From: an uncultured delta proteobacterium | GTDB lineage: Bacteria; Desulfobacterota; Desulfobacteria; Desulfobacterales; UBA2156 | Assembly: GCA_963698465.1 (NCBI GenBank) | Contig: CAVOQY010000013.1 | Location: 228,559-292,558, forward strand | Direction of reading: 5' to 3' | DNA: 64,000 nt | Shown here: piece by piece, positions 23,245 through 57,117 of the stretch | How positions within the stretch are numbered: the stretch's first letter is position 1 | How the letters are laid out: each line of letters begins with the position of its first letter | Notes under the pieces: generated by a model | Databases searched by the model: none | Told to the model about the DNA's origin: nothing | Seen by the model: only the letters and a program-made list of their open reading frames with translations | Made by a program: the position numbers and the translations under genes

Positions 23245-25385
23245 GTCTTCAGGCCTCTTTCCGTATCCAATGCCGCATGTACGCCATCGAAAAAAACGGC
23301 TTCGACGAAAGTTTCCGTTTGGATACCCAGGGCAAGGCTTATTCCATGACGTTTCTCCCCGTTCACAATCCAGTGGGAAAAATTTTCCTCGTTCGGGGTT
23401 TCAAGACGGATATCCACCTGCTGGCCTTCGAAATACCAGCCCTGGTATCCGGCCTTTTCGGGATAGCCGTCAATCACAAATTCAACGCCGGACGGACCCG
23501 TCACCGAACACTTCAAGCTTTTTCCCACCGGGTTCGGCTGTCCATAAAACTGTTCGAGTTCATTCCGAAGGTGGCCCGGCCTTTTTTTGAAAAATTCGCG
23601 GACTGTTTTCCCGTTGAAGTAAGGAACCTGGCCGAACATTTCGCGGGAGAGCGCTTCGTAGTGATCGACTCTGGAATCCAGCCAGGAGGCGTTGATACCG
23701 TGATTCAGCATATCGGTGAACAGGCGGAGGAAATATCGATGATATTCAGGAGATTCCGTCATCAACCGCTTGAACAGTTCCATCCGGAAGAAAGGCTGGA
23801 ATGTCAGCGGAAAACCCCGCTGCTGCCACAATTCTCCGGGAAAACCCCATCCTGGGTAGTCAATGAAGGAGACATCAAGATCCCAGAGGATCCAGGACCA
23901 TTTGGGCTTCGTTTCCCGGTGGTCGAGAAGCGCTGCCCCCTGCTCGTTGTCCCAGTTTCCCAAAAAGACCGTCGCGATAATGAAGCGGGAAAAATTTTCG
24001 ATATCGATCCACCGGTTGACTTCTTCCCAGGAGAGCTTTTCCATCTTTTTGAAGCGCTCCTCCAATCGGTCGTAGCGCTGTTGGTCTTCAACTGCGTTGT
24101 TGGTGTTGTTGAGACGTACGAACGAAAAATCCCTGTGCCTAAGGCGGTATTCCCACTGTTGTTTGTCAAGATGTTCTGCAGCAAAATAGGCGCTGTCGGA
24201 GGGCGGTTTGCCGTTGAGCAGAAAGATCACCGGCCGGATTTCCGGGGTGATGCACCCGATCTTTCTCGCGATGTCAAAAGCAAGCAGGTTGTTAAAGCCA
24301 TGGTTTGCCCTGTCGGCCTCAAGCACGATTTTCTTGACGGGCGTTTTTCCCGAATCAAAGAGCACCCCCGGAGCGGTCTCCCTGAACCCGTACTTTCTTC
24401 GAAAGCAAAGCCGGAAGCTTTCCCTCAGGTGCCGGGTGCTCGACCCCTGGAGCCTCAGGCCAGCGCTGCTCGAAAATTGCAGTGCCCCGTTTTCGAAATA
24501 CGAGACATATGCCAACCTTTCCCATCTTTGCCCCCGCTGCCACCAGTTGTGGGCGATGCCCCAATTTTCGTGATCCAAGGCGTCCTTATCGATCGCCACC
24601 GAAAGGGTCGGAACTTTTTTTAAAAGATATTCCTTTGTAACGATGGTGCTGCTGGGAAAGGCTGCGGTGCCACCGGGATTGGCGGCATAGGCGTATTCCG
24701 AAACTCCCCGTTTCCTGGGAAAAAGCGGCTCGGAGATATATCTTTTCTCGACGACGGCCGATTTTGCGGCTTCAACAGGCATTTCCAATTGAGAGTCGTC
24801 TCCAGATGTCCGCAGAAGAATGCCTTCGGGGCCGGATTCCATCTTAAGGATCCCGTTTTTCGGAGCGATCTTTTTCAGGGATTTTTCGTCTTCCATCCGG
24901 ATCGTCTCATATCCCGCCTGCTCGATTCGGATGCCCTTGAGCGTCATCTCGGAAGGTCTGTCCGAAGGATCGATCCTCAGCCATCGAATGGCGTTCAATC
25001 CGGAAAGGATGAAATAATAGATTTCCTGTTCGGGCCTGGTCAACACGATGTACGAACGCGATTCGGAATAGCTGCGGTCGTCTCCCGCCCAGTAGACCTG
25101 GATCTTTCCCTCGCCCCGGGTGTGCAGCTTAACCTGCATCAGGGCGCTTTGTTGGATTATCCTCGATGGTTCGTCTCCCGGAATGACGTGAATCACGGAC
25201 AGGTCCTTCAAGAGACTTCCCAGGGCCCCGTAATCGAAAATCCCCATCGGGACGGTCTGTTCTCTGAACCGATCCAGCATCGCGCTGAAATGGGGCGAAT
25301 GCTCCAGGACTCCTCCTGCAATGATGAAAAAAAGGAGACCGGCAAGGGTCCACAGAAAAACGGAGCGTTTACCGAGGGTTTTCAC
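23241..25385 (-). CDS. CotH-family (atypical kinase) protein with an N-terminal signal-anchor and an N-terminal beta-rich module
   Basis: 714 aa. TM segment 'VFLWTLAGLLFFIIAGGV'. CotH-like blocks 'LRLQGSSTRHLRESFRLCFRRKYG', 'NLLAFDIARKIGCITPEIRPVIFLLNG', 'FSRFIIATVFLGNWDNEQGAALLD' and 'WSWILWDLDVSF'. GTG start lies 3 nt after the upstream TGA. Confidence 0.8.
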   Translation of the reverse strand: MKTLGKRSVFLWTLAGLLFFIIAGGVLEHSPHFSAMLDRFREQTVPMGIFDYGALGSLLKDLSVIHVIPGDEPSRIIQQSALMQVKLHTRGEGKIQVYWAGDDRSYSESRSYIVLTRPEQEIYYFILSGLNAIRWLRIDPSDRPSEMTLKGIRIEQAGYETIRMEDEKSLKKIAPKNGILKMESGPEGILLRTSGDDSQLEMPVEAAKSAVVEKRYISEPLFPRKRGVSEYAYAANPGGTAAFPSSTIVTKEYLLKKVPTLSVAIDKDALDHENWGIAHNWWQRGQRWERLAYVSYFENGALQFSSSAGLRLQGSSTRHLRESFRLCFRRKYGFRETAPGVLFDSGKTPVKKIVLEADRANHGFNNLLAFDIARKIGCITPEIRPVIFLLNGKPPSDSAYFAAEHLDKQQWEYRLRHRDFSFVRLNNTNNAVEDQQRYDRLEERFKKMEKLSWEEVNRWIDIENFSRFIIATVFLGNWDNEQGAALLDHRETKPKWSWILWDLDVSFIDYPGWGFPGELWQQRGFPLTFQPFFRMELFKRLMTESPEYHRYFLRLFTDMLNHGINASWLDSRVDHYEALSREMFGQVPYFNGKTVREFFKKRPGHLRNELEQFYGQPNPVGKSLKCSVTGPSGVEFVIDGYPEKAGYQGWYFEGQQVDIRLETPNEENFSHWIVNGEKRHGISLALGIQTETFVEAVFFDGVHAALDTERGLKT

Positions 25386-25388
25386 GCC

Positions 25389-26093
25389 TCATAATTCCCC
25401 GGGGTTGCTGGAAAACAGATTCACCCTGGAATTGTTCACGATACCCTTGAGCTTCTTTTCAAGCTCCAAATAGAGATCCACATTGATCTTGGAAAGGGAG
25501 CAAGACAGAATCGTCTCCGAGTCATTCACCGTGATCCCGTCGATTTTTCCCTTCGGCAAAAGCGACCGGATCGCCGCCACGAGCTGTGGGCTTTTTGCTT
25601 CATATTCCGAAGTGGGGACCTTGATGATCAACATCCCCTTATCCGATTTTCCGGCCAGAAGGCTGCTGCTGAAGTGAATCAGACAAATGGCGGCAACCGC
25701 AACGAGAAGGATGATCGACAGAAAAAGGATATTGAAAATGGCGCAGCTGATGGATGACGCGATGATGAGCATGATAAAACCGATTTCCTCGGGTTCTTTA
25801 ACCGGGGTTCTGAACCTCACGATGGACAGTGCGCCAAGAAGGCCCAGGGAAAGGGGAAGCGAGAACTGGATGCAGATAAAGATGGCCGTGATGGAAACGG
25901 AAAGCAGCGGAAAGCTTCGATGGATCTTGCTCCCGGTGGCCCCCGCCCTTGAAAAATGAACGTAAAGAAAGGAAATAAAAAAAGCGCAAAGCAGCGATAT
26001 CAATAACACGAAAAAGAACGGAAAAAAACCGATGTCGGCCATTTTGGGATTCGAAAAACTGTTCAGCAGTTTCGACAGATCAATCTTTTCCAT
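25389..26093 (-). CDS. DUF4956-family membrane protein
   Basis: 234 aa with 4-5 TM helices; signature-like 'LGALSIVRFRTPVKEPEEIGFIM'. Confidence 0.75.
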   Translation of the reverse strand: MEKIDLSKLLNSFSNPKMADIGFFPFFFVLLISLLCAFFISFLYVHFSRAGATGSKIHRSFPLLSVSITAIFICIQFSLPLSLGLLGALSIVRFRTPVKEPEEIGFIMLIIASSISCAIFNILFLSIILLVAVAAICLIHFSSSLLAGKSDKGMLIIKVPTSEYEAKSPQLVAAIRSLLPKGKIDGITVNDSETILSCSLSKINVDLYLELEKKLKGIVNNSRVNLFSSNPGEL

Positions 26094-26150
26094 TGATTTT
26101 TCCTAATGTCGGCAGGTTTGGAGAAGAAGCCCGAAGCTCCTTGAAAGGGC

Positions 26151-26861: not shown

Positions 26862-26951
26862 CCCGGCAAAAGCCGGGATCCAGTCATTTCAAATAGTTCT
26901 GGATGCCGGATCAAGCCCGGCATGACGGAAATTGCCGTTTTCAAAGGTCTC
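26820..26951 (-). repeat. REP/MITE-like double-hairpin element, copy B (inverted relative to copy A)
   Basis: ...cctttgaataattccatattcgtcatcccggcaaaagccgggatccagtcatttcaaatagttctggatgccggatcaagcccggcatgacggaaattgccgttttcaaaggtctc. Hairpin 1 is atcccggc/aaaa/gccgggat; hairpin 2 is atgccgg/atcaagc/ccggcat. Confidence 0.85.
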
Positions 26952-27038
26952 TCTGTCTTCGGTTTGCTTTCGGAATTCTTTTCCATGGGAAAGGTGCTCT
27001 CATTGCTGAAAGCGTAAAAGCCGTTGAGTCGATCATCT

Positions 27039-27069
27039 TCGTGATGCCGGATTCAATCCGGCATCACGA
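27039..27069. repeat. Solitary perfect 13-bp stem-loop related to hairpin 2 of the REP family
   Basis: tcgtgatgccgga-ttcaa-tccggcatcacga. No flanking T-tract on either strand. Confidence 0.8.
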
Positions 27070-27140
27070 ACCTATTGAAATCGCAGAATTAGCGCTGAAG
27101 TTTCACTGCGCTTCGGGATTTTACCTAACGCAAAGAGGAT

Positions 27141-29288: not shown

Positions 29289-32200
29289 TCAAGGTACCCG
29301 ATTCACTTTGAGCGAGAAATCTTCGTGTTCTAGCGTCAAGTTCGGGTTGTAACAAGGATCTCCTTGGGCAAGGACTTTGTTCCATTGTCTTTGGAAGTGC
29401 CTGATTTCTTTTTGAAACCGAAATTTTTGTTCAGGGGTTTCTTCGTATCCTCTCGACGCGGACTCGTGATGAACCGCTTCGCAATAAGGTGTAAAAATAT
29501 TAAAAAGGTCTTTTTGCCGCAAACGCAAACAAAAATCAATATCATTTAATGAAACGGCCAGGTTGTCCTCGTCGAGCCCCCCCGTTTCGAGGAAGGCTTT
29601 TCTCTTCACCATCATCATGGCCCCTGAAACCGCACTGACATTTTGAATGCACATCAACCGGTTCCCATAGCCCTTGTCGTCCCCTGGTGCATGCCGATGG
29701 GAATGGCCGGCAAAGCCGGCGATACCGACAATGACCCCGGCATGCTGAATCGTCCGGTTTGGGTAATAGAGTTTTCCTCCAACCGCGCCAACCTCTTCCC
29801 GTTGGGCGTGTTCGAGGAGCGCCTCTATCCAGTCGCAACTGAGGATCTCTACATCATTGTTCAGCAGGAGAAGCATCTCCCCCGAAGCCAAGGAAACCCC
29901 GTAGTTGTTGATTTTCGAGTAATTAAAGGGCACAGGGTACTCGAAAAAGCGGACCCGTGAATCGGCCCCTTCCAACTGCTTCATCAGCCCGAGCGTTTCC
30001 GGCATCCGGCTCCCGTTGTCGATCCCGAGGATTTCGAAGTGGGTCCAGGTCGACTTGGACAAGATGGCCTCGACGCACTTTTTCAGGAAAACGGGCTGGT
30101 CTTTAAAAGGCACAACGATGCTGACCTTCGGGTTCCCCGAAATTTTCCTTTTGACCCGATAGAAAAAGGGCATGTTCGCCTTTTCCACCGATCCTGGGAT
30201 GCTCCGCCGACCAAGAGCGGCTTCCAGCGCCCGTTTCCCGGATTCGTGGGCGTAGCTCTTGTTGGCGGGGTTAAAACTCGTGGAGGATGCGCTTTTTCGC
30301 CAGAAATACGTCACTTTGGGGATATGATGGATTTTAGGTGTTTTTTCGGAAAGCTTCAATATCAGGTCGTAGTCCTGCGCTCCGTCGCATCCCGGATCAA
30401 ACCCTCCTATCGCATCGAAGAGCGTTCTTTTGAATACCAGGAAGTGGGTGATGTAATTGTGCGACAGAAGCAAGTCCGGAGAAAAATCAGGCTTGAAAAT
30501 TGAATCGTGGGCCCTTCCAGCTTCATCGATGAGGGCCTCGTCCGAGTAAATGACATCCGGGTCTTTTTCGTTGATGGCTTTCACCACTTCGATCAGCGCA
30601 TCCATCGTCAACAGGTCGTCGTGGTCCAGAAGCGCGAGGTATTCGCCTGTCGCCATGGCGGCCGCTTCGTTGGTGGCCTGGGAGATGCCTCGGTTTCCAT
30701 CCAGCAGCCTTGTTTTTATCTTTTCGGAATGCATCGCGCATTTCTTTAAAATCTCGCGCACGTGTTTCGTTTCGCTTCCGTCGTCGACAAGGCAAAGCTC
30801 CCAGTTTTTATAGATCTGCCGCCGGACGGACAGGATCATTTCTTCCAGATGTTTTTCGCCGGTGTTGTACACGGGCACAAGGATGCTGATTTTTGGTTTT
30901 TTATTAAGGGCTTCTAAGAACAGATTAGGCTCCCTTTCCTCGAAAATACCGAATTCGAGATAGTGCCCTAAAGGATCCACGCCCGAGCGCGCTACATCGG
31001 AATATTTTCCAAGATAATAGCCGCCGTCGAAAAGGGGGCTCGTCGCTTTTTTTGTCCTCACCCCTCGGATCAGATAGTGCTCAAGAAGGGTTCTGTCCCA
31101 GCGTTTTGCGTCCGGGTGTTGCGCCGTATAGAAGCTGTACGTAAAAAGCGGGTTAGGGTCCCGTCCCTCCTTTGAACCGGACTGGACGTAGTGCTCCAGG
31201 GCGTTTATTCCTGCAGCATGCACGTCCGGGTTGCTTCTCCAATAATAGTAGGTGTCGAACAAGGGGTGAGGGTTGAAGCCCTCCCGGGCTCCCCGGGTAA
31301 GGTAATGTATTAAAGGATTCGTTTGGGTTTCCCGGGCCTGCCGGCAGTATTTAAGATAATAAACGGGATCAAACAGTAAGTGCGGGGTACAACCGTTTTT
31401 CCACCCGGTTTCCAGGTAGTGCGCAAGGGGGTTCACATCGCTCTCAGCCGCCTCAGGGTTTTGACTTTTATAGTACGCCGTGTCGAAAAGCGGATGCGGA
31501 TCAAAGCCTTGCTCTGCGCCCTTCTCCATGTAATGCCTCAGGGGGTTCATCCCGCTCTGGGACACTTCCGGGTTGCGCATCGCGTAATAGTTCGTGCTGA
31601 ACAAAGGGTGCGGATTAAGACCTTCCGCAGCCCCCGCACGTAAAAAGTGCACCAGGGGATTCACACCGCTCTCAGCCGCCCCCGGGTTCTGACTTTTATA
31701 GTACGCCGTGTCGAAAAGCGGATGCGGATCAAAGCCTTGCTCTGCGCCCTTCTCCATGTAATGCCTCAGGGGGTTCATCCCGCTCTGGGACACTTCCGGG
31801 TTGCGCATCGCGTAATAGTTCGTGCTGAACAAAGGGTGCGGATTAAGACCTTCCGCAGCCCCCGCACGTAAAAAGTGCACCAGGGGATTCACACCGCTCT
31901 CAGCCGCCCCCGGGTTCTGACTTTTATAATACGCCATGTCGAACAGGGGATGCGGGTCCCGACCCTCCGCCGCGCCGCTTGTAAGGTAGTGCGTGATGGG
32001 ATCGATCCTCATCGCTTTGACGTCCGGGTTTCTGTTCAGGTAATCAGCCTCGTCGAAAAGGCCTGATTGACGGATGAGCGGGTACTCCCCCCGGACTCTG
32101 AACACCGCGGTTTTCCAGCGGCTCGAATGAACCCTTGCGCCCTTTGAAAATTTCCTCACCGGCGCCGTCAATTTCCACGATGACGATTCCAGCAGGCTTT

Positions 32201-32777
32201 CCCTGATCCTTCGTTCAGCCTCAAGCGTTTCTTTCAGAAATATCGTCTCGCGCCCAAGCTTCTCCAGTTCGGCTTTGATCCCCTGGACCGTTTTTTCGAG
32301 TGCCTCCCCTTTTTCGGCGCCGCGGTCAATCTTTCCGATATATTCCAAAACTTTCTCTCGGTAATCCGTCTGAGTTTCTTGACAAGCCTTCCAAAGATAC
32401 GGAATGGTTTCCTTGCCGACAGCTTCGAACCGTGTCCAGAACGTGACACTCTCGATGGGGGCGTTGAAGACGTGAACGTAAATCTCGGGGGAATCTGTTG
32501 CAAAAATGAGGCGGCGGTCTTGCCTGAACATGGCGTTACTGCTGAAATTGCCGACCTCGAAAACGTGGCCTCCTGGGTTCTGAATTTCGATCTTCATCAG
32601 ATCCAACACCAGGTAATCTTCCGCAGGCCGCAGACAAAGGCTTCGGATGAGCTGTCCTTCTTTGCCCGGTATGAAGGTTATTCTTTCCTCTTTTCGGACA
32701 ATTTCCACCACCAGGTTTCCTTTTTCGGAAAAACCGGAACCCGTGTCCAAAAGAAGTCTGGCGTTGGCAAGCGGCAT
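29289..32777 (-). CDS. Giant glycosyltransferase: N-terminal beta-rich module + coiled coil + 10 x 38-aa repeats + two GT2 domains
   Basis: 1162 aa. Repeats run aa ~241-618 (nt ~30924-32057). GT2-1: 'ISILVPVYNTGEKHL', 'LCLVDDGS', 'GEYLALLDHDD'. GT2-2: 'VSIVVPFKDQ', 'ILGIDNGS', 'LLLLNNDVE'. The ATG shares one base with the upstream TAA (TAATG). Confidence 0.85.
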   Translation of the reverse strand: MPLANARLLLDTGSGFSEKGNLVVEIVRKEERITFIPGKEGQLIRSLCLRPAEDYLVLDLMKIEIQNPGGHVFEVGNFSSNAMFRQDRRLIFATDSPEIYVHVFNAPIESVTFWTRFEAVGKETIPYLWKACQETQTDYREKVLEYIGKIDRGAEKGEALEKTVQGIKAELEKLGRETIFLKETLEAERRIRESLLESSSWKLTAPVRKFSKGARVHSSRWKTAVFRVRGEYPLIRQSGLFDEADYLNRNPDVKAMRIDPITHYLTSGAAEGRDPHPLFDMAYYKSQNPGAAESGVNPLVHFLRAGAAEGLNPHPLFSTNYYAMRNPEVSQSGMNPLRHYMEKGAEQGFDPHPLFDTAYYKSQNPGAAESGVNPLVHFLRAGAAEGLNPHPLFSTNYYAMRNPEVSQSGMNPLRHYMEKGAEQGFDPHPLFDTAYYKSQNPEAAESDVNPLAHYLETGWKNGCTPHLLFDPVYYLKYCRQARETQTNPLIHYLTRGAREGFNPHPLFDTYYYWRSNPDVHAAGINALEHYVQSGSKEGRDPNPLFTYSFYTAQHPDAKRWDRTLLEHYLIRGVRTKKATSPLFDGGYYLGKYSDVARSGVDPLGHYLEFGIFEEREPNLFLEALNKKPKISILVPVYNTGEKHLEEMILSVRRQIYKNWELCLVDDGSETKHVREILKKCAMHSEKIKTRLLDGNRGISQATNEAAAMATGEYLALLDHDDLLTMDALIEVVKAINEKDPDVIYSDEALIDEAGRAHDSIFKPDFSPDLLLSHNYITHFLVFKRTLFDAIGGFDPGCDGAQDYDLILKLSEKTPKIHHIPKVTYFWRKSASSTSFNPANKSYAHESGKRALEAALGRRSIPGSVEKANMPFFYRVKRKISGNPKVSIVVPFKDQPVFLKKCVEAILSKSTWTHFEILGIDNGSRMPETLGLMKQLEGADSRVRFFEYPVPFNYSKINNYGVSLASGEMLLLLNNDVEILSCDWIEALLEHAQREEVGAVGGKLYYPNRTIQHAGVIVGIAGFAGHSHRHAPGDDKGYGNRLMCIQNVSAVSGAMMMVKRKAFLETGGLDEDNLAVSLNDIDFCLRLRQKDLFNIFTPYCEAVHHESASRGYEETPEQKFRFQKEIRHFQRQWNKVLAQGDPCYNPNLTLEHEDFSLKVNRVP
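31441..31945 (-). repeat. Tandem 228-bp coding repeat, about 2.2 copies, near-perfect
   Basis: 31441-31668 and 31669-31896 are identical except for a few bases at the unit starts. A partial third unit begins at 31897. This is also visible as identical antisense ORFs at 31380/31647/31875. Confidence 0.9.
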
Positions 32778-35700
32778 TAATAAACCCTATCGAAAAGCTT
32801 CATCGAAAGGCGCGGAAATTTTCCGTGAAAACTTGTGCGGATGCAATTCAGCAGGAAATCGAAATCCCAGGGTCCCGTGTGTTCTCTTTTCAATCCGCCG
32901 ACACGATCTGCGACCGCCTTTCTGAAAAGAATGAACGGCCCTACCTCGTGGTTGACCTCGAGCATCGGTTCGGCGAAAAGGCTATCCTCCACGCGCACCC
33001 CCTCGACACCTGGAATTTGCTGGTCACAGAAAAGCAGATCTACATCGGGATATCGATTTACCAGACGTACATATTCGAACAGGGCCTCCATACGGGGTGC
33101 AACCTGCTTCAAGAAAAGAAGGAACTCGCCCGAAGCAGTGGAAAGGGCCCTGTTCAGCGCCTCGGGCAGCGGTTCACCTTTTTCTGCGGGGCATCCTCGT
33201 ATGCGTGCATCCTTCTCTTGAGCGCTTTCCGCGACCGGTCCCAGTTCCTCACGGTCCTCTGCATCAAATACCAGGATTGACTCCCAGTTCCGGTAAATCT
33301 GAAGGCAAAGGGAGTCCAGGAATTCCTGCGCCTGGGCTCTGGAAAGTCCGCGGAAATCAACGATCAGGGTGATCAGTGGCTGGTGGATGAATCGATCCAG
33401 CAAGGGATTCGGCTTCTTCTTGGCCGGGATGCCATATTGAAGATAGTGGGCCAGGGGATTGCTCGGGGGACTCGCGGCTTCCGGGTTTTGACTCATATAA
33501 TATAAGGTGTCGAAGAAGGAACAAGGGTTTTTCCCCTGCCCTGCCCCGACTTCGATAAAATGGACAAGGGGGTTTTGCCCTTCCATCAGCGCCTCCAGGG
33601 CTTCCCTCAGGTAATAGTCACTTCGAAATGCCGGGTTGGGGTCCCTGGCTTCTTTCCAGCCGTGTTCCAGGTAGTGCGCCAGAGGGTTGACGCCTGATTC
33701 GCGCACGTCGGGGTTTTGCCGGAGGTAGTACCGGGTGTCGAAAAGGGGGCCGGGGTTGAGCCCTTCTGCCTCGCCTTTCTCCAGGTAATGCACCAGGGGG
33801 TTTTCCCCGGCTTGGAGCGCTTCAGGGCTTTGCGCCAGATAATAGGCCGTGTCGAACACCGGGTTGGGGTTTTTCCCCTCCCGCGCCCCTTCGGTAAGGT
33901 AGTGCACCAGGGGGTTTTGCGCCGACGCCGCTACCTCCGGGTTGCTCCGGAGGTAATAGGCCGCATCGAACACCGGACTGGGGCTCTTGCCTTCCCTTCC
34001 CCCCTTTTCCAGGTAGTGAACCAAAGGGTTCTGCCCTGACCTTGAAACCTCTGGATTTTTTGAAAAATAATAGGAGGAATCGAAAAGGGAACACGGGTTG
34101 CGTCCCTCCCTCCCTCCAGCTTGGAGGAAGTGCGCCAGGGGGTTGACGCCCGACTCCGCCACGTCGGGGTTTTGCCGGAGGTAGTACCGGGTGCCGAAAA
34201 GGGGGCCGGGGTTGAGCCCTTCTGCCTCGCCTTTCTCCAGGTAGTGCACCAGGGGGTTGGCGCCAGATTCCAGCGTCCCGGAGCATTGCGCCAGGTAATA
34301 GGCCGTGTCGAACACCGGGTTGGGGTTTTTCCCCTCCCGCGCCCCTTCGGTAAGGTAGTGCACCAGGGGGTTTTGCGCCGACGCCGCTACCTCCGGGTTG
34401 CTCCGGAGGTAATAGGCCGCATCGAACACCGGACTGGGGCTCTTGCCTTCCCTTCCCCCCTTTTCCAGGTAGTGAACCAAAGGGTTCTGCCCCGCCTCGA
34501 GGCTTTCCGGACCGTTGGAAAGGTACCAGGACGTTTCAAACAGGGGATGCGGGTTTCTCTCTTCTAAGGCACCTGTCTCCAAAAAGTGAACGAGGGGGTT
34601 GATTCCCGACAGGGCGACATCCGGGTTTTTCTCCCGATAGTACCGGGGATCGAAGAGCGGGTTCGGGCGAAACCCTCCGGGTGCGCCTTTTTGCAGGAAA
34701 TGCTCCAGGGAATTTTCCTTCTCTCCCATCTGCTCCCCGACGGCGGACCGGTAATAGCGGGGGTCGAACAGCGGGCTGGGCTTCCGGTTTTCACGGTCCC
34801 CATTTTCCAGGAAGTGCTGGAGAGGATCGATGCCGGACTCTTTCACGTCGCTGTTGTGCTGAAGGTAATAACTTGCATCGAACAGGGGGTGCGTATTCCT
34901 CCCCTCCGTTGCACCGTGCCTGATATAGTCCCAGAGAGGGTCCTTTTTCAAAAAGCCCACTTCCGGGTACCGCAGCCGGTAATAGGAGGGATCGAACAGG
35001 GGGCTTTTTTTCAATTTACGGTAGGCCCGGCAACCGGGGATCGCGCCGGTGAACCCCGCAACCGCAAGGAGATGCAACACGGCAAGCATGCCCTTCCTGA
35101 AAGCCCTGAGCCCCCTCCACCATGGATGGGTTTTGAGGCTTTCCAGTGTCTCTGCCAGTTTCTGGTTTTCGGCTTCCAGGCGAATTATATGGCTTTCTTC
35201 CTGAAATACCTGGGCCTGAAACTGGTGCAGTATCTGATCTTTTACCTGGATTTTTTTGGCTTCCTTTACGATTTCCGAGGCCTCTTCCTGAATGAGATCT
35301 TCCTTTTCCTTCAGGGTTGACAGGTATTTTTCCCTTTCGCGGCTGAAGGCATCCAGGGACTGCGCCAGCGCCTTTTGGGCCAGAATAAAATCCGGCGTTT
35401 TCGGCCAGTCCATTTCAGCTTCCAGGATGAAAAATCCTTCGAGACTCGGCCTGGAAATTGTTTCCGTCACCTTGAACAGGAGATAGGGCTCGGGATTTAG
35501 CGCCGAAAAGATCTCTCCCTGGTCATTTCGGGTAAAAAGAACGTTTTCAAGGATTGCAGAGTCGGCGATCTGCTTGGGGTTTTCCAGTCGCAGGAGGGTT
35601 TCTTCTACGATCCCCGTTTCGGGGACTCTTTTCACCGTGAGCGAGTAAAGCGTGAAAAACCCCAGTCGGTTTGCCGGCTTCAGTTTCAGCCACGCGAGGG

Positions 35701-37507
35701 GAGCCCCATGCACGTTGAAGGGAAAAGCGAGGACCTGCCTGGAAACCCCGGTCTGTCCCGAGACGTAAACGCTTCTTTCCTCCGAAAAATCTTTTCGGCT
35801 CCCGGACCAGAAGAGCTGGGCGGAAAAGGATGCGGCAGCTGCGCCGGCGTCCGGAAAGAAAAGGGACGCTTCCACCATTTTTCGGATGTTGTTCAGGCCC
35901 CTCTGAAAATTGATACCGGATTGCAGCCTCTCTTCTCTTTCTATGAAATCCTCCATGTCGAGTCGGTGCTCCAGGGACAGCGTCCTGAAACCATAAGCGA
36001 CAAACCCCCTGAGATTTGTTATTCCCTTCAGGTCGAAAATTGGCTTCAGCAGCTTTTCGCTGCTCTTGCCGAACCACAGCAAAGCCCGGAAGAGAAGAAA
36101 TTCCGGTGATACCGGTTCTTCGAGGATCCATTCGTCATCGATGACGCGCCAGTTCCCGTCTTCTCCAACGACGATGTTGAAGGGCAACAGATCGACGTTT
36201 TTGCCGCCTCCGTTCGAACGGACCAACCCGGCGACGAAATCATGGTAGCTTTTCAGTTGAACTTCGAAAGGGGCCGACTCGCGGCACTGAAAAACGGCCT
36301 CCAGCCATTTTTCCGAAAGAAGGATTCCCCGGTAGTACGGCTTTTCGTGAAGGGAGTGCTTCAAGCCCGACCCCTTGCACTGGAAGACAGCCTGGGGGAC
36401 CGTGGCCTGCTTGACCACCCTGTCTAAGCCCGACGGCTTCCGGGTCAGAGTCCGGTAAGCCGGCCTCCTTCCCGAATCCGAGAAAAAGACGAAATCGTCC
36501 TGGATTACTTTACCGAGGATCTCATCGGAGGCCCCGGCTGCGATGAGAAATGAATTGGCGTAATGTGCCAGCCGACCCGAACGGTGAAGGGCCTTCCACA
36601 CGAAAAATTCATAAGCGTCCGTGCTCCAGGGACCGAGATAGTCCCTGGATTCCACCCGGTAAAGCATCGAATAGGCGAAGGGGTCGCTCTCGAGAAAGGC
36701 ATCGGACAGTATGGCCTTGGGGAGGCAGTAGTCTGGAAAAGGAAAAAGGAAGCGGCGTTTTTGAAATCCGGCTTTTTTCAAAATGCTGCCCCATTGGTCC
36801 AGGTCAAACGTTTCGCGGCCTTCTTTCTTGGGGTAGCCGTAAAGACCCGTGTAAGGGGTCCCGGAGTGCCCTTCAGCAGCTCCAAGCCAGAACTTGAGAC
36901 CGAAGCGGTTGTCTGCGGCGACGACCAGCAGACCTTTCTCCTCGAGCGCCGGTCTCACCCTGGAGAAAAATTCTACCGCAGCCGTCTCCGCATCGCCCAG
37001 GCGAAGGAAACGCCGGTTGAGGTCGTCCGCAAGGCCGAGAACAAAAATTGCACGGTAGGCCTTTTCGGGCATTTCCAGTTCCGGAAAGGGAATGCTGACG
37101 ACATTCACGTTTTCAAGGCCCCGGCACCGAAGCGCCGCGAGCCCCGCCTTGCGCGGGCAGTCCTCCACCGCGTCCACTTGGAACCCCGCCTCCCCCAGAT
37201 ACCGGGTCACCGCTCCGCATCCGCAACCCAGCTCCAGGACCGCACCCGCCCCCTTTAGATTGAGCCCCCTCACAATATTGGCTCGGCGGGGATCGAGCTG
37301 CAATCGAAGTACGGTTTCATGCTCCGGGATCCTTCTTTCCATCTCCACGGAGGAAGAACTCAGGTCCTGGACGGATTCGAGGATCTCCCGTATTTTTTCA
37401 TAAGGAAAAGCTCCGTCAGCGACCTTTTCTTCCCGTCTTTCCTCGGACATCCAGACACCGGATTCGTTTTTCACCAGGCGATGGGTTTTTAGAAGCGGAA
37501 ACGTCAC
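32777..37507 (-). CDS. Giant multidomain protein: SAM-methyltransferase + kinase-like domain (WbdD-like head) + beta-rich module + coiled coil + hydrophobic helix + 14 x 38-aa repeats + degenerate GT2-like tail
   Basis: 1576 aa. 'VLELGCGCGAVTRYL' (MTase motif I); 'VDLLPFNIVVGEDGNWRVIDDEW' (kinase-like DxxxxN..IDxE). Coiled coil at aa ~705-795; repeats at aa 838-1369 (nt ~33401-34996). The tail 'LITLIVDF..ILVFDAEDRE..GEFLLFLKQVAP' lacks the DxD motif. The GTG start overlaps the upstream stop (GTGA). Confidence 0.8.
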   Translation of the reverse strand: MTFPLLKTHRLVKNESGVWMSEERREEKVADGAFPYEKIREILESVQDLSSSSVEMERRIPEHETVLRLQLDPRRANIVRGLNLKGAGAVLELGCGCGAVTRYLGEAGFQVDAVEDCPRKAGLAALRCRGLENVNVVSIPFPELEMPEKAYRAIFVLGLADDLNRRFLRLGDAETAAVEFFSRVRPALEEKGLLVVAADNRFGLKFWLGAAEGHSGTPYTGLYGYPKKEGRETFDLDQWGSILKKAGFQKRRFLFPFPDYCLPKAILSDAFLESDPFAYSMLYRVESRDYLGPWSTDAYEFFVWKALHRSGRLAHYANSFLIAAGASDEILGKVIQDDFVFFSDSGRRPAYRTLTRKPSGLDRVVKQATVPQAVFQCKGSGLKHSLHEKPYYRGILLSEKWLEAVFQCRESAPFEVQLKSYHDFVAGLVRSNGGGKNVDLLPFNIVVGEDGNWRVIDDEWILEEPVSPEFLLFRALLWFGKSSEKLLKPIFDLKGITNLRGFVAYGFRTLSLEHRLDMEDFIEREERLQSGINFQRGLNNIRKMVEASLFFPDAGAAAASFSAQLFWSGSRKDFSEERSVYVSGQTGVSRQVLAFPFNVHGAPLAWLKLKPANRLGFFTLYSLTVKRVPETGIVEETLLRLENPKQIADSAILENVLFTRNDQGEIFSALNPEPYLLFKVTETISRPSLEGFFILEAEMDWPKTPDFILAQKALAQSLDAFSREREKYLSTLKEKEDLIQEEASEIVKEAKKIQVKDQILHQFQAQVFQEESHIIRLEAENQKLAETLESLKTHPWWRGLRAFRKGMLAVLHLLAVAGFTGAIPGCRAYRKLKKSPLFDPSYYRLRYPEVGFLKKDPLWDYIRHGATEGRNTHPLFDASYYLQHNSDVKESGIDPLQHFLENGDRENRKPSPLFDPRYYRSAVGEQMGEKENSLEHFLQKGAPGGFRPNPLFDPRYYREKNPDVALSGINPLVHFLETGALEERNPHPLFETSWYLSNGPESLEAGQNPLVHYLEKGGREGKSPSPVFDAAYYLRSNPEVAASAQNPLVHYLTEGAREGKNPNPVFDTAYYLAQCSGTLESGANPLVHYLEKGEAEGLNPGPLFGTRYYLRQNPDVAESGVNPLAHFLQAGGREGRNPCSLFDSSYYFSKNPEVSRSGQNPLVHYLEKGGREGKSPSPVFDAAYYLRSNPEVAASAQNPLVHYLTEGAREGKNPNPVFDTAYYLAQSPEALQAGENPLVHYLEKGEAEGLNPGPLFDTRYYLRQNPDVRESGVNPLAHYLEHGWKEARDPNPAFRSDYYLREALEALMEGQNPLVHFIEVGAGQGKNPCSFFDTLYYMSQNPEAASPPSNPLAHYLQYGIPAKKKPNPLLDRFIHQPLITLIVDFRGLSRAQAQEFLDSLCLQIYRNWESILVFDAEDREELGPVAESAQEKDARIRGCPAEKGEPLPEALNRALSTASGEFLLFLKQVAPRMEALFEYVRLVNRYPDVDLLFCDQQIPGVEGVRVEDSLFAEPMLEVNHEVGPFILFRKAVADRVGGLKREHTGPWDFDFLLNCIRTSFHGKFPRLSMKLFDRVY
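33672..34491 (-). repeat. Tandem 456-bp coding repeat (four 38-aa units), about 1.8 copies
   Basis: 33841-34035 is identical to 34297-34491 (195 nt), with high similarity across the rest of the unit. Also visible as shared antisense ORF text at 33716..34039 and 34121..34567. Confidence 0.9.
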
Positions 37508-46278: not shown

Positions 46279-46286
46279 GTCTTTCT

Positions 46287-49228: not shown

Positions 49229-49230
49229 CT

Positions 49231-52467: not shown

Positions 52468-52510
52468 TGCATCTGATCTTTATTAAATGATTCTCTAAGA
52501 CAGGGATTAT

Positions 52511-53284: not shown

Positions 53285-53321
53285 TTCCGCTGTGGGCGTT
53301 TTCTCAAGAATTGTTTAAAAG

Positions 53322-54710: not shown

Positions 54711-54717
54711 AAATCTG

Positions 54718-57117
54718 CTATTCTTTCGCTTTTATACCTCTAATTTGGCAATCAGATATCTTATAAATTCCGGGGACGTTTCCTGGATCGAATCGAATTT
54801 GGCCTATAACTTCGTCCGTCGGCAGGAAAAAATATAACTCATTTATGCCTTTTTTGATCCTTTTTTTAATGCTCGTTTTTTCATTAAAATAAGAAGCATC
54901 TTTTGTTTTGTAAAAAAGTTGTGCCGTCGTCTCAACGGGACTAGAAAGCACAACTTTCAAAATACTCGAAGAAAAATTTCCAACTTCAAGTTTTGGAAAT
55001 AGGAGTTGCGGATCCTCACCGAAAACTGCAAGTGTTAACAAATTATTATTAAAAGACATTACAATATGGTTGGAAGGCGTTACTTCTTTGGATGCGCTTA
55101 ATGACATAAGTATCTTATCGGACGAATCAAAGTGCCATTTTAAATTTCGATGAAATATGTGGCGGTTTCCGCCTGAAAGCCATTGTTTATCAGGCTCTGG
55201 GACATGCTCATAAACACCTTCACAGGCATAAATCATACAAGGCCAATTCAAGTTTTGAAAATTCGTATTATAAATTGGTTTTCCGAGATTTTGTTTTGTA
55301 TAACGCAAATGTCGAAATCGTTTTCCAGACATCATCAGGCGCCAAGTCAATGGATATTCAGGACTATCTCCTCCCATGATTAGCCCTATCCGATTACAAT
55401 TTAGCTCCTTAGCTTTGTCTATGAACGAGTCGTGTATGTCTTTCAGCCCGGCATTATTGTAATATTCTGGTATACGACTCGGTATCTCTCCCCAGAAATA
55501 ATGAGGAATTAGAGTCCTTGCGGGCACTTTGCAGGCGATAAGGGCAGCATAGGCAAGTGATGGAAAAGCGGTGCATGCCAGTCCGATAGTCAATGTGCGT
55601 TTAAATGCCCGTCGATATCGGGACAGCACAGCGGCAAATGAAAAACTAAAGGGTAGAATATAGAAAAGCGGTATGTTGAGCCGCGTGATCCACCCTTGGT
55701 CTTTAACCACAATTCCAAAAAGTGCCCAGGCCGCAACCGGCGTCAGCGATAGCAGGAAATGGGGCCATGCCGCCGGAAATAAAAACAGAAAAATTGAAGA
55801 CAAGAGGGATAAGAAAGCAAGAGCCAGAAAGGCTAAAACCTGATAAGGGTTTCCAATCATGTCTTCTTGGAGATGAAATATATCTTTGGTGATGAGGCTG
55901 CCTTTGTAGCCGATGATTTTCAAGACTTCCCGGAGTTGATCCGGGAAGGGAATATTATGGGCGAGTATCCTAACCGGATTCCACATTCGGTCTGTTTCGT
56001 ATCTTGAAAAAAGTGGATAGGTGACCTGCGTGTTGAAATGATGCGCGTGTTTTCGATATACATCTGGCCCTGCTGTTATCCCGAAGGCGGTAAAAACGCA
56101 CAATGAGCCGGCAGCGAGCTTTTTCGGGACTCTGGTTTTCAGAATGGACTTCAGCTGAAAAAGCGCTCCGGAAAAAAGAATCGGCGCTGAAACAATCAAA
56201 GACGTCGGCTTGACTAAAAATCCACTGGCAACGCATATACCTATCAGGACGAATTCCGACAACTTCATCCTCCTGAAACTTCCGGAATAGAGCCGAGCGC
56301 CAGCAATCAATATGGCGGAGGTCATCAAAGCTGCCACCAGATCGTTTTTTGTGTTGGATGCCTCCATGACGGCTATCGGAGCTGTCGATGCAATAACGGC
56401 AATGAAAGGGATCCAGGGTCTAGGAAGCCTTAAAATCCTGCCGATATATGCCGTGGAAACAATTAAGGCGATATAGGCACTGAATTGGATAAAGTTGGCA
56501 CATGAGTCCGATTGCGTCATGATTTGGAAAAAAAGGATAAGGTATTCCGCGCCTGGGCCCATGACATTCTGACGGTCGATAGGCGTCGGATAGTATTCAA
56601 TGCTTTTGTTTTGCATCCAATGAACAATCCTCGCCATATGGTACGTCAGACTGTCGTAATTATTCGGCGGATAGATCCAAGCAGCCAAACCGATGAGAAT
56701 CAATAGCGGCAGGAAAAGGTTGAGCCTCGGATTCTTCAAACCTTTTTTAATAAGACGATATAATTTTCTTAAATGATTGCCGATCGAGACCGGATTGGAA
56801 ATCAATATCCATAGCATCCACAAGATCAGGAGGCTAACATGACATCGAATCAGCCAATTTTTCTCTACCGCACCAAAAAGGCTCAAAATGTTTAACAATA
56901 CAGCCTCAACCGCAATCCATGCCGCAAAGGCAACAGCTACCGCGCCGCTCAGCGGAATTGGGCGTATCCGGATGATCATCTCCGAAAGTGCAAAAATAAT
57001 GGCCCCGGACAGGATGAGCGCTAAAAGGACTTCCAATTCTTCTCTTCCATTCGCTTTACGGGGCAGGATCCCGAACAAGGGAATGCCAGACGCCAAATTG
57101 AAAACAGCATTTGGCAA
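54718..57117 (-). CDS. GT-C fold polytopic glycosyltransferase with a C-terminal beta-rich module
   Basis: 799 aa; 'PPNNYDSLTYHMARIVHWMQNKSIEYY' first-loop motif and at least 11 TM helices. The C-terminal ~130 aa carry 'AQLFYKTKDASYFNEKTS' and 'IGQIRFDPGN'. The TTG start at 57117 is doubtful (62-nt overlap with the upstream gene). Confidence 0.7.
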   Translation of the reverse strand: MPNAVFNLASGIPLFGILPRKANGREELEVLLALILSGAIIFALSEMIIRIRPIPLSGAVAVAFAAWIAVEAVLLNILSLFGAVEKNWLIRCHVSLLILWMLWILISNPVSIGNHLRKLYRLIKKGLKNPRLNLFLPLLILIGLAAWIYPPNNYDSLTYHMARIVHWMQNKSIEYYPTPIDRQNVMGPGAEYLILFFQIMTQSDSCANFIQFSAYIALIVSTAYIGRILRLPRPWIPFIAVIASTAPIAVMEASNTKNDLVAALMTSAILIAGARLYSGSFRRMKLSEFVLIGICVASGFLVKPTSLIVSAPILFSGALFQLKSILKTRVPKKLAAGSLCVFTAFGITAGPDVYRKHAHHFNTQVTYPLFSRYETDRMWNPVRILAHNIPFPDQLREVLKIIGYKGSLITKDIFHLQEDMIGNPYQVLAFLALAFLSLLSSIFLFLFPAAWPHFLLSLTPVAAWALFGIVVKDQGWITRLNIPLFYILPFSFSFAAVLSRYRRAFKRTLTIGLACTAFPSLAYAALIACKVPARTLIPHYFWGEIPSRIPEYYNNAGLKDIHDSFIDKAKELNCNRIGLIMGGDSPEYPLTWRLMMSGKRFRHLRYTKQNLGKPIYNTNFQNLNWPCMIYACEGVYEHVPEPDKQWLSGGNRHIFHRNLKWHFDSSDKILMSLSASKEVTPSNHIVMSFNNNLLTLAVFGEDPQLLFPKLEVGNFSSSILKVVLSSPVETTAQLFYKTKDASYFNEKTSIKKRIKKGINELYFFLPTDEVIGQIRFDPGNVPGIYKISDCQIRGIKAKE

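What the first reader, a model, noticed from the sequence alone, without database searches (positions are those of the whole stretch)
24768..55110. One ~120-aa beta-rich module recurs in six catalytically unrelated proteins of the operon
Reading the proteins side by side shows the same three-block pattern:
- Block 1: 'xQ(L/V)(Y/F)(W/Y/V)..G..(F/Y)(S/N)(E/D)..S'
- Block 2: '(I/L)R.L(R/K)(I/F/V/L)(D/K)P......(hydrophobic)...I(E/R)'
- Block 3: 'F(A/S).....(D/N)P(Q/E)(I/L/Y).(L/V)'

Occurrences:
- CotH N-terminus, nt ~24768-25142: IQVYWAGDDRSYSESRS .. IRWLRIDPSD .. SGDDSQLEM.
- 1162-aa GT N-terminus, ~32418-32765: ARLLLDTGSGFSEKGN .. IRSLCLRPAED .. FATDSPEIYVHV.
- 1576-aa protein, ~35408-35830: AQLFWSGSRKDFSEERS .. 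LAWLKLKPANR .. FSALNPEPYLLF.
- GT2-MTase, ~39429-39773: SQLYVDTGSGFNDRQV .. IRGLRFDPIND .. FSTRDPQIHLEV.
- HAD-GT4 giant C-terminus, ~40581-40982: CQVYWHQGDGYSEAKS .. LHLRVDPCMWD .. ESTGADPQILVPL.
- Low-GC GT-C C-terminus, ~54721-55110: AQLFYKTKDASYFNEKTS .. IGQIRFDPGN, with GEDPQLLFPK placed before the other blocks.

In the 1162-aa GT and the GT2-MTase the module is followed by a coiled coil and a shared 'S(S/T)SWKL(T/S)xP(V/L)R' motif.

Inference: a common module on a kinase, GT2s, a GT4, a GT-C and a methyltransferase protein suggests either a shared ligand (the growing glycan or its lipid carrier, CBM-like) or a shared docking surface that assembles the enzymes into one machine.
Basis: seen in the sequence. 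Interest (0 to 1): 0.65.

Follow-up and report, generated by a model that had tools for sequence, protein, structure and literature searches.

The report
Unannotated sugar-binding-like module on six enzymes
Six different enzymes in one bacterial polysaccharide gene cluster carry the same small beta-sandwich domain, which is real, widespread, absent from domain databases, shaped like known carbohydrate-binding modules, and probably holds the enzymes onto the sugar chain they build.

Summary
All six segments lie on the minus strand at the stated coordinates. Profiles built without a given copy still recover it far above noise, and there is no seventh copy.

- **Family size:** an exhaustive search finds 1017 representative proteins with the module (E<=1e-3). 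It is often in tandem and is fused to GT2, GT4, methyltransferase, sulfotransferase, pyruvyltransferase, FkbM and AlgX-like enzymes.
- **Annotation:** no Pfam, NCBIfam or PDB sequence family covers it.
- **Fold:** the AlphaFold model of the GT-C copy (pLDDT 92.8) matches CBM4, CBM29 and other beta-jelly-roll carbohydrate-binding modules (131 Foldseek hits, TM 0.55-0.68).
- **Strand order:** the other five copies are circular permutants of that fold, shown by swapped HMM pieces and hhalign.
- **Literature link:** the 1576-aa protein is a homologue of the Klebsiella pneumoniae O7 ORF6 methyltransferase-kinase chain terminator. The unexplored "CBM" seen in that protein's AlphaFold model is this module.
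- **Origin of the six copies:** each resembles copies in other organisms far more than it resembles its neighbours, so they are not recent duplicates.

The most likely role is glycan recruitment. Two copies are predicted to lie outside the cytoplasmic membrane, so one common docking complex is unlikely. No binding has been tested. I rate it a new member of a known kind, of moderate interest.

The parts
24741..25148 (-). Module copy in the CotH protein (aa 80-215). It follows the single N-terminal membrane anchor (aa 9-27) and precedes the CotH domain (aa 310-589). Blocks run in the order 1-2-3. An extra strand, 'MQVKLH', sits before block 1.
   Evidence: Leave-one-out E 8e-16. External profiles give 2e-8 (type A) and 2e-10 (type B). 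TM segment. Pfam CotH.
32403..32777 (-). Module copy at the N-terminus of the 1162-aa GT2-GT2 protein (aa 1-125), type A order.
   Evidence: phmmer against the GT2-MTase copy gives 4e-10. Leave-one-out E 1e-6. External type A profile 2.5e-24.
32154..32186 (-). 'SSSWKLTAPVR' motif (aa 198-208) at the end of the charged, helix-like linker that follows the module in the 1162-aa protein.
   Evidence: Regex hit. The same motif occurs after the module and linker in external relatives such as P0003, P0006 and P0021.
35408..35860 (-). Module copy in the 1576-aa protein (aa 550-700), type A order. It lies between the methyltransferase plus kinase-like N-terminal part and the charged, helix-like linker.
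   Evidence: Leave-one-out E 1e-6. External type B profile 1e-3. Its orthologue in L081 scores 2e-7 and 1.5e-7. The N-terminus is homologous to K. pneumoniae O7 ORF6-N, E 8e-29.
39405..39797 (-). Module copy in the GT2-methyltransferase (aa 230-360), type A order. This is the most canonical copy.
   Evidence: External type A profile 1.3e-39. AlphaFold model m00698dcc4294 has pLDDT 85.8, pTM 0.80 and is all-beta.
39219..39251 (-). 'STSWKLSYPLR' motif (aa 412-422) after the linker in the GT2-methyltransferase.
   Evidence: Regex hit.
40566..41018 (-). Module copy at the C-terminus of the HAD-GT4 protein (aa 1080-1230), type A order.
   Evidence: Leave-one-out E 2e-3. External type A profile 8e-8 over the full length. 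External type B profile 4e-11, as two pieces in swapped order.
54721..55092 (-). Module copy at the C-terminus of the GT-C protein (aa 676-799), type B order (block 3, then 1, then 2). This is the canonical CBM strand order.
   Evidence: External type B profile 1.4e-31. AlphaFold model m1275b7f4dd00 has pLDDT 92.8 and pTM 0.85. Foldseek against PDB gives 131 hits at E<=1e-3, led by CBM4 and CBM29.

Best explanation
The six segments are copies of one ancient domain of about 120 residues. It is currently unannotated and has the beta-jelly-roll (galactose-binding-domain-like) fold of CBM4/CBM29-type carbohydrate-binding modules.

**Two strand orders.**
- The GT-C copy keeps the canonical order.
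- The other five copies are circular permutants.

**Proposed role (inferred).**
- The domain is an accessory that has long travelled with enzymes that build or decorate bacterial polysaccharides.
- Each copy most likely binds the glycan chain on which its own enzyme acts, or the end of that chain. This would raise the local substrate concentration.
- In the proteins where the module is followed by a linker and the 'SWKLT' motif, it would hold the chain next to the catalytic or terminating domain.

**Shown versus inferred.**
- Shown: homology, fold, permutation, distribution, and identity with the putative CBM of the K. pneumoniae O7 terminator.
- Inferred: glycan binding and its purpose.
For: **One real family.**
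- Leave-one-out and external-only profiles recover every copy.
- 1017 representative proteins match at E<=1e-3 and 108 at E<=1e-10.

**Fold.**
- The GT-C copy model has pLDDT 92.8.
- It gives 131 PDB hits at E<=1e-3. The top hits are CBM4 (1gu3, 1gui), SGBP-B, CBM29, the BiXyn10A CBM, CBM11 and CBM16, all with probability 1.0.

**Circular permutation.**
- HMM pieces match in swapped order.
- hhalign of type A against type B gives 76 aligned columns and E 6e-15 in native order. After permuting type A it gives 99 collinear columns and E 4.6e-18.
- The strand sequences of the two models are cyclically identical.

**Context.**
- Of 63 relatives scanned, 16 carry GT2, 8 carry SAM methyltransferases and 6 carry GT4. 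Sulfotransferase and AlgX-type SGNH domains also occur. Pyruvyltransferase and FkbM were seen in a separate scan of nine top relatives.
- Tandem arrays of 2-4 copies are common, as they are for CBMs.

**Literature.**
- The 1576-aa protein is its homologue, with 31% identity and E 8e-29.
- Orthologues 84-85% identical to ORF6 (Raoultella L001, Klebsiella L002) carry this module at aa about 558-688.
- A C-terminal CBM on the GT-C enzyme ORF12 binds its O-polysaccharide in vitro (PMC11127046).

**Conservation.**
- A syntenic cluster keeps all four modules that it covers.
Against: - No binding experiment exists for any member of the family.
- The residues conserved across the whole family (R-x-D-P in block 2, D-P in block 3) are shared by enzymes that must act on chemically different glycans. 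They are therefore probably structural and say nothing about a ligand.
- I could not inspect model coordinates for an aromatic platform or a binding cleft.
- Galactose-binding-like domains also include lipid-binding and protein-binding members, such as discoidin and the Eph ligand-binding domain, which are among the hits.
- The module is absent from about two thirds of ORF6-like terminators (53 of 80). It is therefore dispensable for that chemistry.
- The CBM of ORF12 was dispensable for catalysis under the conditions tested (PMC11127046).
- The type A model alone found no structural neighbour.
Confidence: 0.55

Rival explanations
1. The module is a protein-protein docking or oligomerisation domain. 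It would assemble the enzymes of the pathway into one complex, working with the adjacent coiled coils.
For: - Three copies sit directly before a charged, helix-like linker. The linker is followed by the SWKLT motif in two of them.
- Coiled-coil terminator and polymerase proteins are known to form complexes (background in PMC11231755).
- Jelly-roll domains such as the Eph ligand-binding domain mediate protein binding.
- Several module-bearing proteins cluster together in the window, in L081, and in L025 and L027.
Against: - The CotH copy follows a signal anchor. The GT-C copy is the C-terminal domain that is periplasmic in known GT-C enzymes. The other four host proteins are cytoplasmic by their chemistry. 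All six cannot meet.
- The copies share only 15-29% identity, and each belongs to a different sub-lineage. No common surface is evident.
- Many relatives carry tandem arrays or are periplasmic AlgX-like proteins. This fits polymer binding better.
Confidence: 0.17
2. The module binds the membrane or the lipid carrier (undecaprenyl pyrophosphate or a phospholipid head group), as discoidin or C2-type beta-sandwiches do. It would position peripheral enzymes at the membrane.
For: - The family-wide invariant residues are charged (R and D), so they might recognise a common moiety such as pyrophosphate rather than variable sugars.
- The soluble GT2, GT4 and methyltransferase hosts have no TM segment, yet they act on lipid-linked substrates.
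- Discoidin-type domains appear among the weak structural hits.
Against: - The GT-C and CotH proteins are already membrane-anchored.
- In ORF6-type proteins the module sits at the end of the coiled coil far from the GT2 modules, next to the terminator (PMC11231755).
- The best structural neighbours are soluble-glycan CBMs, not discoidin or C2 domains.
- The 'SWKLT..PLR' segment and the following hydrophobic stretch are better candidates for membrane association.
Confidence: 0.1
3. The module is a passive structural spacer or folding scaffold with no ligand, for example part of the ruler architecture together with the coiled coil.
For: - It is absent from two thirds of ORF6-like terminators.
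- It evolves faster than the catalytic parts: 27-53% identity against 46-66%.
- The related CBM of ORF12 is dispensable in vitro (PMC11127046).
Against: - The module is retained at the same position in a syntenic cluster and in distant taxa.
- It occurs at N-terminal, internal and C-terminal positions, in tandem arrays, and in small proteins that are little more than the module. A spacer role does not explain this.
Confidence: 0.1
4. The resemblance is chance similarity among beta-rich, low-information segments.
For: Most pairwise comparisons are not significant on their own.
Against: - Leave-one-out and external-only profiles give E-values from 1e-3 to 1e-39 against a noise floor of about 0.4.
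- There are 1017 database relatives.
- Both AlphaFold models are confident.
Confidence: 0.01

Closest known systems
The putative CBM of the Klebsiella pneumoniae O7 ORF6 chain terminator-polymerase (Whitfield laboratory, J Biol Chem 2024, PMC11231755)
   Same: - This is the same domain family. Orthologues 84-85% identical to ORF6 carry the module at aa about 558-688, between the kinase-like domain and the coiled coil.
- The window's 1576-aa protein has the same layout: methyltransferase, kinase-like domain, module, linker.
- Its N-terminus is homologous to ORF6-N, E 8e-29.
   Different: - In that paper the domain was seen only in an AlphaFold model of one protein. It was called immunoglobulin-like, its function was 'not pursued', and it was said to be unknown in other terminators.
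- Here it proves to be a large family on many enzyme types, with two strand orders.
- The window splits ORF6's functions between two proteins: the 1576-aa protein and the 1162-aa GT2-GT2 protein.
- The ORF6 sequence itself was not available. The test used its close orthologues.
CBM4, CBM29 and related type B beta-jelly-roll carbohydrate-binding modules of glycoside hydrolases (for example PDB 1gu3, 1gui, 1gwm, 4mgs)
   Same: The fold matches: Foldseek probability 1.0, TM 0.55-0.68, about 125 aligned residues. They are accessory domains appended to carbohydrate-active enzymes and are often found in tandem.
   Different: - Sequence identity is only 8-16%. No Pfam, CAZy-type or PDB sequence match exists.
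- The hosts here are biosynthetic transferases, many of them cytoplasmic, not secreted hydrolases.
- Five of the six copies are circularly permuted.
- Binding is undemonstrated.
C-terminal CBMs of GT-C glycosyltransferases: Citrobacter youngae ORF12 (GT136; PMC11127046), and mycobacterial EmbC and AftD
   Same: Like the window's GT-C protein, these have a beta-rich domain after the last transmembrane helix. The ORF12 domain binds the unmodified O-polysaccharide in a pull-down assay. This is the best functional precedent for the GT-C copy.
   Different: - Homology to ORF12 aa 503-652 could not be tested, because the sequence is not held as text.
- EmbC and AftD were not among the top structural hits.
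- The ORF12 CBM was dispensable for catalysis under the test conditions.
The C-terminal CBM of the O-antigen ABC-transporter subunit Wzt (Pfam PF14524)
   Same: It is a cytoplasmic beta-sandwich that recognises a nascent, lipid-linked polysaccharide (its terminal cap) in the same kind of pathway. It shows that cytoplasmic glycan reading exists.
   Different: There is no Pfam match. It is attached to a transporter ATPase rather than to transferases. No wzt gene was seen among the window ORFs scanned with Pfam.
Pfam PF21253, Mann_GBD_bact (mannanase galactose-binding-domain-like)
   Same: It is the only database family with any signal. The block 1-2 region of external relatives P0001 and P0013 matches profile positions 75-121 of 143 (E 1e-6 and 2e-5). 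This places blocks 1-2 in the C-terminal half, as in the GT-C order.
   Different: No single stretch passes on its own. None of the six window copies, and none of 31 type B units, hits it even at E<=1 or E<=10. The relation is at best a distant superfamily link.

Membership tests
Beta-jelly-roll CBMs (galactose-binding-domain-like superfamily; CBM4/CBM29 type) | A beta-sandwich jelly-roll fold with significant structural similarity to solved CBMs | tested here: met
   The GT-C copy model (pLDDT 92.8) gives 131 PDB hits at E<=1e-3. CBM4, CBM29, CBM11 and CBM16 are at the top, with TM 0.55-0.68.
Beta-jelly-roll CBMs (galactose-binding-domain-like superfamily; CBM4/CBM29 type) | The canonical strand order along the sequence | tested here: not met
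   Only the GT-C copy meets this. The other five are circular permutants: HMM pieces match in swapped order, hhalign needs permutation to align block 3, and the type A model finds no PDB neighbour.
Beta-jelly-roll CBMs (galactose-binding-domain-like superfamily; CBM4/CBM29 type) | Sequence membership in a curated CBM or Pfam family | tested here: not met
   No Pfam or NCBIfam hit on the modules. No PDB sequence-profile hit below E 0.18.
Beta-jelly-roll CBMs (galactose-binding-domain-like superfamily; CBM4/CBM29 type) | Demonstrated carbohydrate binding, by an aromatic or polar binding face | not testable with these tools
   This needs purified protein, or at least model coordinates, which the tools do not expose.
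The CBM-like domain of K. pneumoniae O7 ORF6-type terminators (PMC11231755) | The host protein is homologous to the ORF6 N-terminal methyltransferase-kinase | tested here: met
   The 1576-aa protein (aa 17-328) against ORF6-N rebuilt from SI Fig. 9 gives 31% identity and E 8e-29. The 'VDLLPFN' block is retained at aa 438.
The CBM-like domain of K. pneumoniae O7 ORF6-type terminators (PMC11231755) | A beta-rich domain lying between the kinase-like domain and the coiled coil | tested here: met
   The module is at aa 550-700 of the 1576-aa protein, followed by a charged, helix-like linker. The same position is occupied in 27 of 80 ORF6-like proteins.
The CBM-like domain of K. pneumoniae O7 ORF6-type terminators (PMC11231755) | The ORF6 domain itself matches the module profile | tested here: met
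   This was tested on orthologues 84-85% identical to ORF6 (L001 Raoultella, L002 Klebsiella), not on ORF6 itself. The external type A profile gives 4e-6 over the full length. Type B gives 1e-8 plus 4e-4 in swapped order.
C-terminal CBMs of GT-C enzymes (ORF12/GT136, EmbC, AftD) | A beta-rich soluble domain after the last TM helix of a GT-C enzyme | tested here: met
   The GT-C protein has a weak PMT_2 hit, 12-14 hydrophobic segments and a 270-aa C-terminal tail that ends in the module.
C-terminal CBMs of GT-C enzymes (ORF12/GT136, EmbC, AftD) | Sequence or structural homology to ORF12 aa 503-652 or to the EmbC CBM | not tested
   The ORF12 sequence is not held as text. EmbC and AftD are absent from the top 50 structural hits.
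Wzt C-terminal CBM (PF14524) | A match to the Pfam model and attachment to an ABC-transporter nucleotide-binding domain | tested here: not met
   No such Pfam hit. The hosts are transferases, a kinase-like protein and a GT-C enzyme.
Pfam PF21253 Mann_GBD_bact | A score above the gathering threshold | tested here: not met
   The window copies give no hit at E<=10. P0001 reaches 29.3 bits only as the sum of four copies, and no single stretch passes.

The most novel reading that the evidence does not exclude
The module may be a pathway-wide 'glycan reader'. Different enzymes on both faces of the membrane would use it to recognise a common feature of one nascent polymer, such as its backbone or its capped end. 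Successive steps (polymerisation, methylation, termination, post-export decoration by GT-C, possibly phosphorylation by CotH) would then be ordered by handing over the same chain. In this reading, circular permutation is a way to fit the same binding face onto N-terminal, internal and C-terminal positions.
Probability: 0.12. Interest if true: 0.75.

Novelty: new member of a known kind. Interest (0 to 1): 0.45.

Why it matters
- **Rarity of accessory domains on these enzymes.** Accessory carbohydrate-binding modules are well known on enzymes that degrade polysaccharides. They are hardly charted on enzymes that build them.
- **Size of the gap.** This family has at least about a thousand 50%-identity clusters and no database entry. 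Proteins that consist mostly of the module are named 'hypothetical protein'. The linker-module regions of large O-antigen and exopolysaccharide enzymes go unannotated.
- **Practical gains from defining it:**
  - Annotation of these proteins would improve.
  - The single putative CBM noted in the K. pneumoniae O7 terminator would gain a family context.
  - A tractable test system would be available (O7 ORF6, or Pseudomonas syringae-group orthologues) for asking how chain length, termination and decoration are coupled to substrate capture.
- **Protein evolution.** The two strand orders are a clean natural example of circular permutation within tandem-repeat-prone domains.

Tried and rejected
**Searches that returned nothing**
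- Two word-index searches (search for homologous proteins with A1 and A2). The family is too divergent for shared 5-mers. The exhaustive HMMER search was needed.
- Pfam and NCBIfam on the modules and on the whole proteins. Nothing covers the module.
- A PDB sequence-profile search with 31 type B units. Nothing scored below E 0.18.
- Foldseek with the type A (GT2-MTase) model. The best hit was E 0.024, with TM <= 0.35 among the listed hits. I attribute this to circular permutation rather than a new fold, because the type B model matched CBMs strongly and hhalign links the two types.
- A phmmer search of the 1576-aa N-terminus against PDB for WbdD. It returned only generic methyltransferases, so I do not claim WbdD homology.
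- An attempt to fetch the Cyanobacterium stanieri ORF6 orthologue with a 56-aa fragment. It was replaced by a nine-sequence alignment rebuilt from the paper's supplement.
- The ORF12 (GT136) sequence could not be recovered from the supplement.
- The window's GT2-MTase is not on record in the contig index, so the source organism was not identified. The relatives are mostly Deltaproteobacteria/Desulfobacterota MAGs.

**Ideas rejected**
- Recent domain shuffling within the operon. Each copy's best external match scores 46-153 bits, against at most 34 bits internally.
- A seventh copy. No other window ORF scores better than E about 0.2 with any profile.

**Unresolved**
- Crude hydropathy could not settle the number of TM helices in the GT-C protein (12-14). 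The periplasmic placement of its C-terminal domain rests on knowledge of the GT-C family.
Full report
**Setting.** The genes between about 1.8 kb and 63 kb that were examined lie on the minus strand. They form a large polysaccharide-biosynthesis island. It contains:
- many GT2 and GT4 glycosyltransferases;
- three GT-C-like membrane proteins;
- methyltransferases and radical-SAM enzymes;
- an MBOAT;
- GDP-sugar enzymes;
- a CotH-DUF4956-VTC triad.

GC content falls to 0.375-0.39 around 52-56 kb.

| Host protein | Module (aa) |
|---|---|
| CotH | 80-215 |
| 1162-aa GT2-GT2 protein | 1-125 |
| 1576-aa protein | 550-700 |
| GT2-methyltransferase | 230-360 |
| HAD-GT4 | 1080-1230 |
| GT-C | 676-799 |

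**Observation: pairwise comparison is weak.** Only two pairs are significant by phmmer:
- GT2x2 with GT2-MTase, 4e-10.
- CotH with the 1576-aa protein, about 1e-3.

**Observation: profiles settle it.** HMMs were built from five copies and searched against all 621 six-frame ORFs of the window. Each time the omitted copy was the best non-training hit, and noise began at E about 0.4.

| Omitted copy | E-value |
|---|---|
| CotH | 8e-16 |
| GT2-MTase | 6e-11 |
| GT-C (permuted) | 5e-10 |
| GT2x2 | 1e-6 |
| 1576-aa protein | 1e-6 |
| HAD-GT4 | 2e-3 |

Profiles built only from sequences outside the window also detect all six copies. The weakest is the 1576-aa protein at 1e-3. Its orthologue in a syntenic contig scores 2e-7. 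No seventh copy exists.

**Observation: the linker motif.** The motif 'S[ST]SW[KR]..' follows the linker in the 1162-aa protein (aa 198) and in the GT2-MTase (aa 412). It recurs in external relatives.

**A large, unannotated family.**
- An exhaustive HMMER search of 1.84 billion representative proteins with the six-copy profile found 1017 proteins at E<=1e-3 and 108 at E<=1e-10.
- Half of the top 150 hold two to four copies.
- Pfam scans of 63 of them show the partners: GT2 (16), SAM methyltransferases (8), GT4 (6), sulfotransferase and AlgX-type SGNH acetyltransferase. Pyruvyltransferase and FkbM appeared in a separate scan of nine top relatives.
- Nothing in Pfam or NCBIfam covers the module.
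- A profile search of PDB sequences is empty.
- Proteins that are little more than the module are named 'hypothetical protein'.
- The only database echo is a sub-threshold match of blocks 1-2 to the C-terminal half of PF21253, a mannanase galactose-binding-like domain.

**Fold.**
- The AlphaFold model of the GT2-MTase copy is a confident all-beta domain (pLDDT 85.8). It found no PDB neighbour.
- The GT-C copy was modelled with 30 relatives of the same block order and is better (pLDDT 92.8, pTM 0.85).
- That model gives 131 Foldseek hits at E<=1e-3. They are led by CBM4, SGBP-B, CBM29, the BiXyn10A CBM, CBM11 and CBM16, with TM 0.55-0.68.
- The fold is therefore the beta-jelly-roll of galactose-binding-domain-like carbohydrate-binding modules.

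**Circular permutation.** The family has two sequence orders.
- Type A runs block 1, 2, 3 and ends with a long strand.
- Type B runs block 3, that long strand, block 1, block 2.

GT-C is type B. The other five copies are type A. The CotH copy appears to be cut one strand earlier.

The evidence for permutation is as follows.
- HMM pieces match in swapped order.
- The strand lists of the two models are cyclically identical.
- hhalign of type A against type B aligns only blocks 1-2 in native order (76 columns, E 6e-15).
- After permuting type A, hhalign aligns 99 collinear columns including block 3 (E 4.6e-18).

Type B has the order found in solved CBMs, so it is the canonical form. I infer that frequent tandem arrays offer an obvious route to permutation.

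**Link to published work.**
- The authors did not pursue the CBM. They state that CBMs are unknown in other terminators (PMC11231755).
- I rebuilt the ORF6 N-terminus from the supplement. It matches the window's 1576-aa protein at 31% identity over 313 residues, E 8e-29.
- An alignment of nine published orthologues retrieved 571 relatives from reference genomes, of which 80 were kept.
- The two closest are Raoultella lignicola and Klebsiella sp. R390, 84-85% identical to ORF6 and 1405 aa long. Both carry the module at about aa 558-688 in type A order.
- So do 27 of the 80 relatives, mostly Pseudomonas syringae-group species. The remainder lack it.
- The published 'CBM' is therefore this module.
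- A second paper shows that the C-terminal CBM of a GT-C enzyme (C. youngae ORF12, GT136) binds its O-polysaccharide, although it is dispensable in the assays used (PMC11127046). This is a functional precedent for the GT-C copy. Homology between the two could not be tested.

**Why six copies in one cluster.**
- Each window copy matches external copies at 46-153 bits but its neighbours at 34 bits or less. The six are old lineages that travel with their host enzymes, not recent duplicates.
- A syntenic metagenomic contig (L081) keeps the order HAD-GT4, GT2-MTase, GT2, 1576-like, GT2x2-like, and keeps all four modules.
- In that comparison the modules diverge faster (27-53% identity) than the rest of the proteins (46-66%).

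**Mechanism.**
- The fold, the exclusive association with polysaccharide enzymes, the tandem arrays and the two literature precedents make glycan binding the best-supported role (confidence 0.55). Binding would recruit the substrate or capture the chain next to the catalytic or terminating domain.
- A single docking surface for all six enzymes is unlikely.
  - The CotH copy follows an N-terminal anchor.
  - The GT-C copy is the domain that is periplasmic in known GT-C enzymes.
  - The other four host proteins use cytoplasmic donors.
- Lipid-carrier binding and a passive spacer role remain possible.
- The invariant R-x-D-P and D-P residues are probably structural.
- Nothing here tests binding.

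**Verdict.** It is a new, large, circularly permuted member of the CBM-like jelly-roll class, attached to biosynthetic enzymes. It has been glimpsed once in the literature but never defined. Interest is moderate.

Noticed in passing
window 30900-32100 and 33400-35000 (minus strand; aa ~230-620 of the 1162-aa protein, aa ~830-1370 of the 1576-aa protein): Both proteins hold long arrays of a 38-residue (114-nt) repeat, 'NPL.HY..G..EGR.P.PLFD..YY'. There are recent higher-order duplications: 228 nt x2.4 at 96% identity (31418-31955) and 456 nt x1.8 at 94% (33669-34492). No Pfam family matches the repeat. The same repeats follow the module, linker and SW..T motif in many external proteins.
   Followed up: partly
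window 35828-37507 (minus strand): The N-terminal 550 residues of the 1576-aa protein are homologous to the K. pneumoniae O7 ORF6 methyltransferase-kinase chain terminator (E 8e-29). They keep the 'VDLLPFN' block that aligns with the region of the catalytic D441. This suggests the cluster makes a capped polysaccharide, for example one with a methyl-phosphate end, by an ABC-transporter-type pathway. No wzm or wzt gene was seen in the window.
   Followed up: partly
L081 (ENA metagenome ERZ24794671), whole locus: This syntenic cluster has the same gene order (HAD-GT4, GT2-MTase, GT2, 1576-like, GT2x2-like) and keeps all four modules. The modules are less conserved (27-53% identity) than the rest of each protein (46-66%).
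   Followed up: yes
L025 10526-12430 and L027 10482-12647 (Pseudomonas syringae / P. congelans): In these reference genomes a second module-bearing ORF lies immediately downstream of the ORF6-like terminator. Several module-bearing genes per cluster is therefore not unique to the window.
   Followed up: no
window 23241-26861 (minus strand): A CotH kinase-like protein with an N-terminal membrane anchor lies next to a DUF4956 membrane protein and a VTC-domain protein. This triad is embedded in the polysaccharide cluster, and its role there is unexplained.
   Followed up: no
window 52000-56000: GC content drops from about 0.55 to 0.375-0.39 over the GT-C gene, a GT4 gene and a 257-aa ORF with no Pfam match. 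This suggests a mosaic or horizontally acquired segment inside the island.
   Followed up: no
window 45136-46584 (minus strand): The listed 482-aa ORF (GDP-fucose-synthase-like by its sequence) has an arginine- and glycine-rich N-terminal extension of about 100 residues that overlaps the upstream GDP-mannose dehydratase-like gene (46287-47501). The real start is probably the internal 'MDKASKIFVAGAAG'.
   Followed up: no
window 27141-29222 (minus strand): The 693-aa GDSL/SGNH protein has an N-terminal signal-like segment. It ends with 'CFIATAAFGS', followed by a hydrophobic helix and a basic tail, which resembles a C-terminal sorting or anchor signal.
   Followed up: no
window 35000-35100 region (aa 808-826 of the 1576-aa protein): A single hydrophobic stretch follows the linker and the 'HPWWRGLRAFRKG' segment. 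Methyltransferase and GT2 Pfam domains lie on either side of it, so it is more likely a membrane-associating helix than a true transmembrane span. It may be the counterpart of the 'SWKLT..PVR' motif.
   Followed up: no
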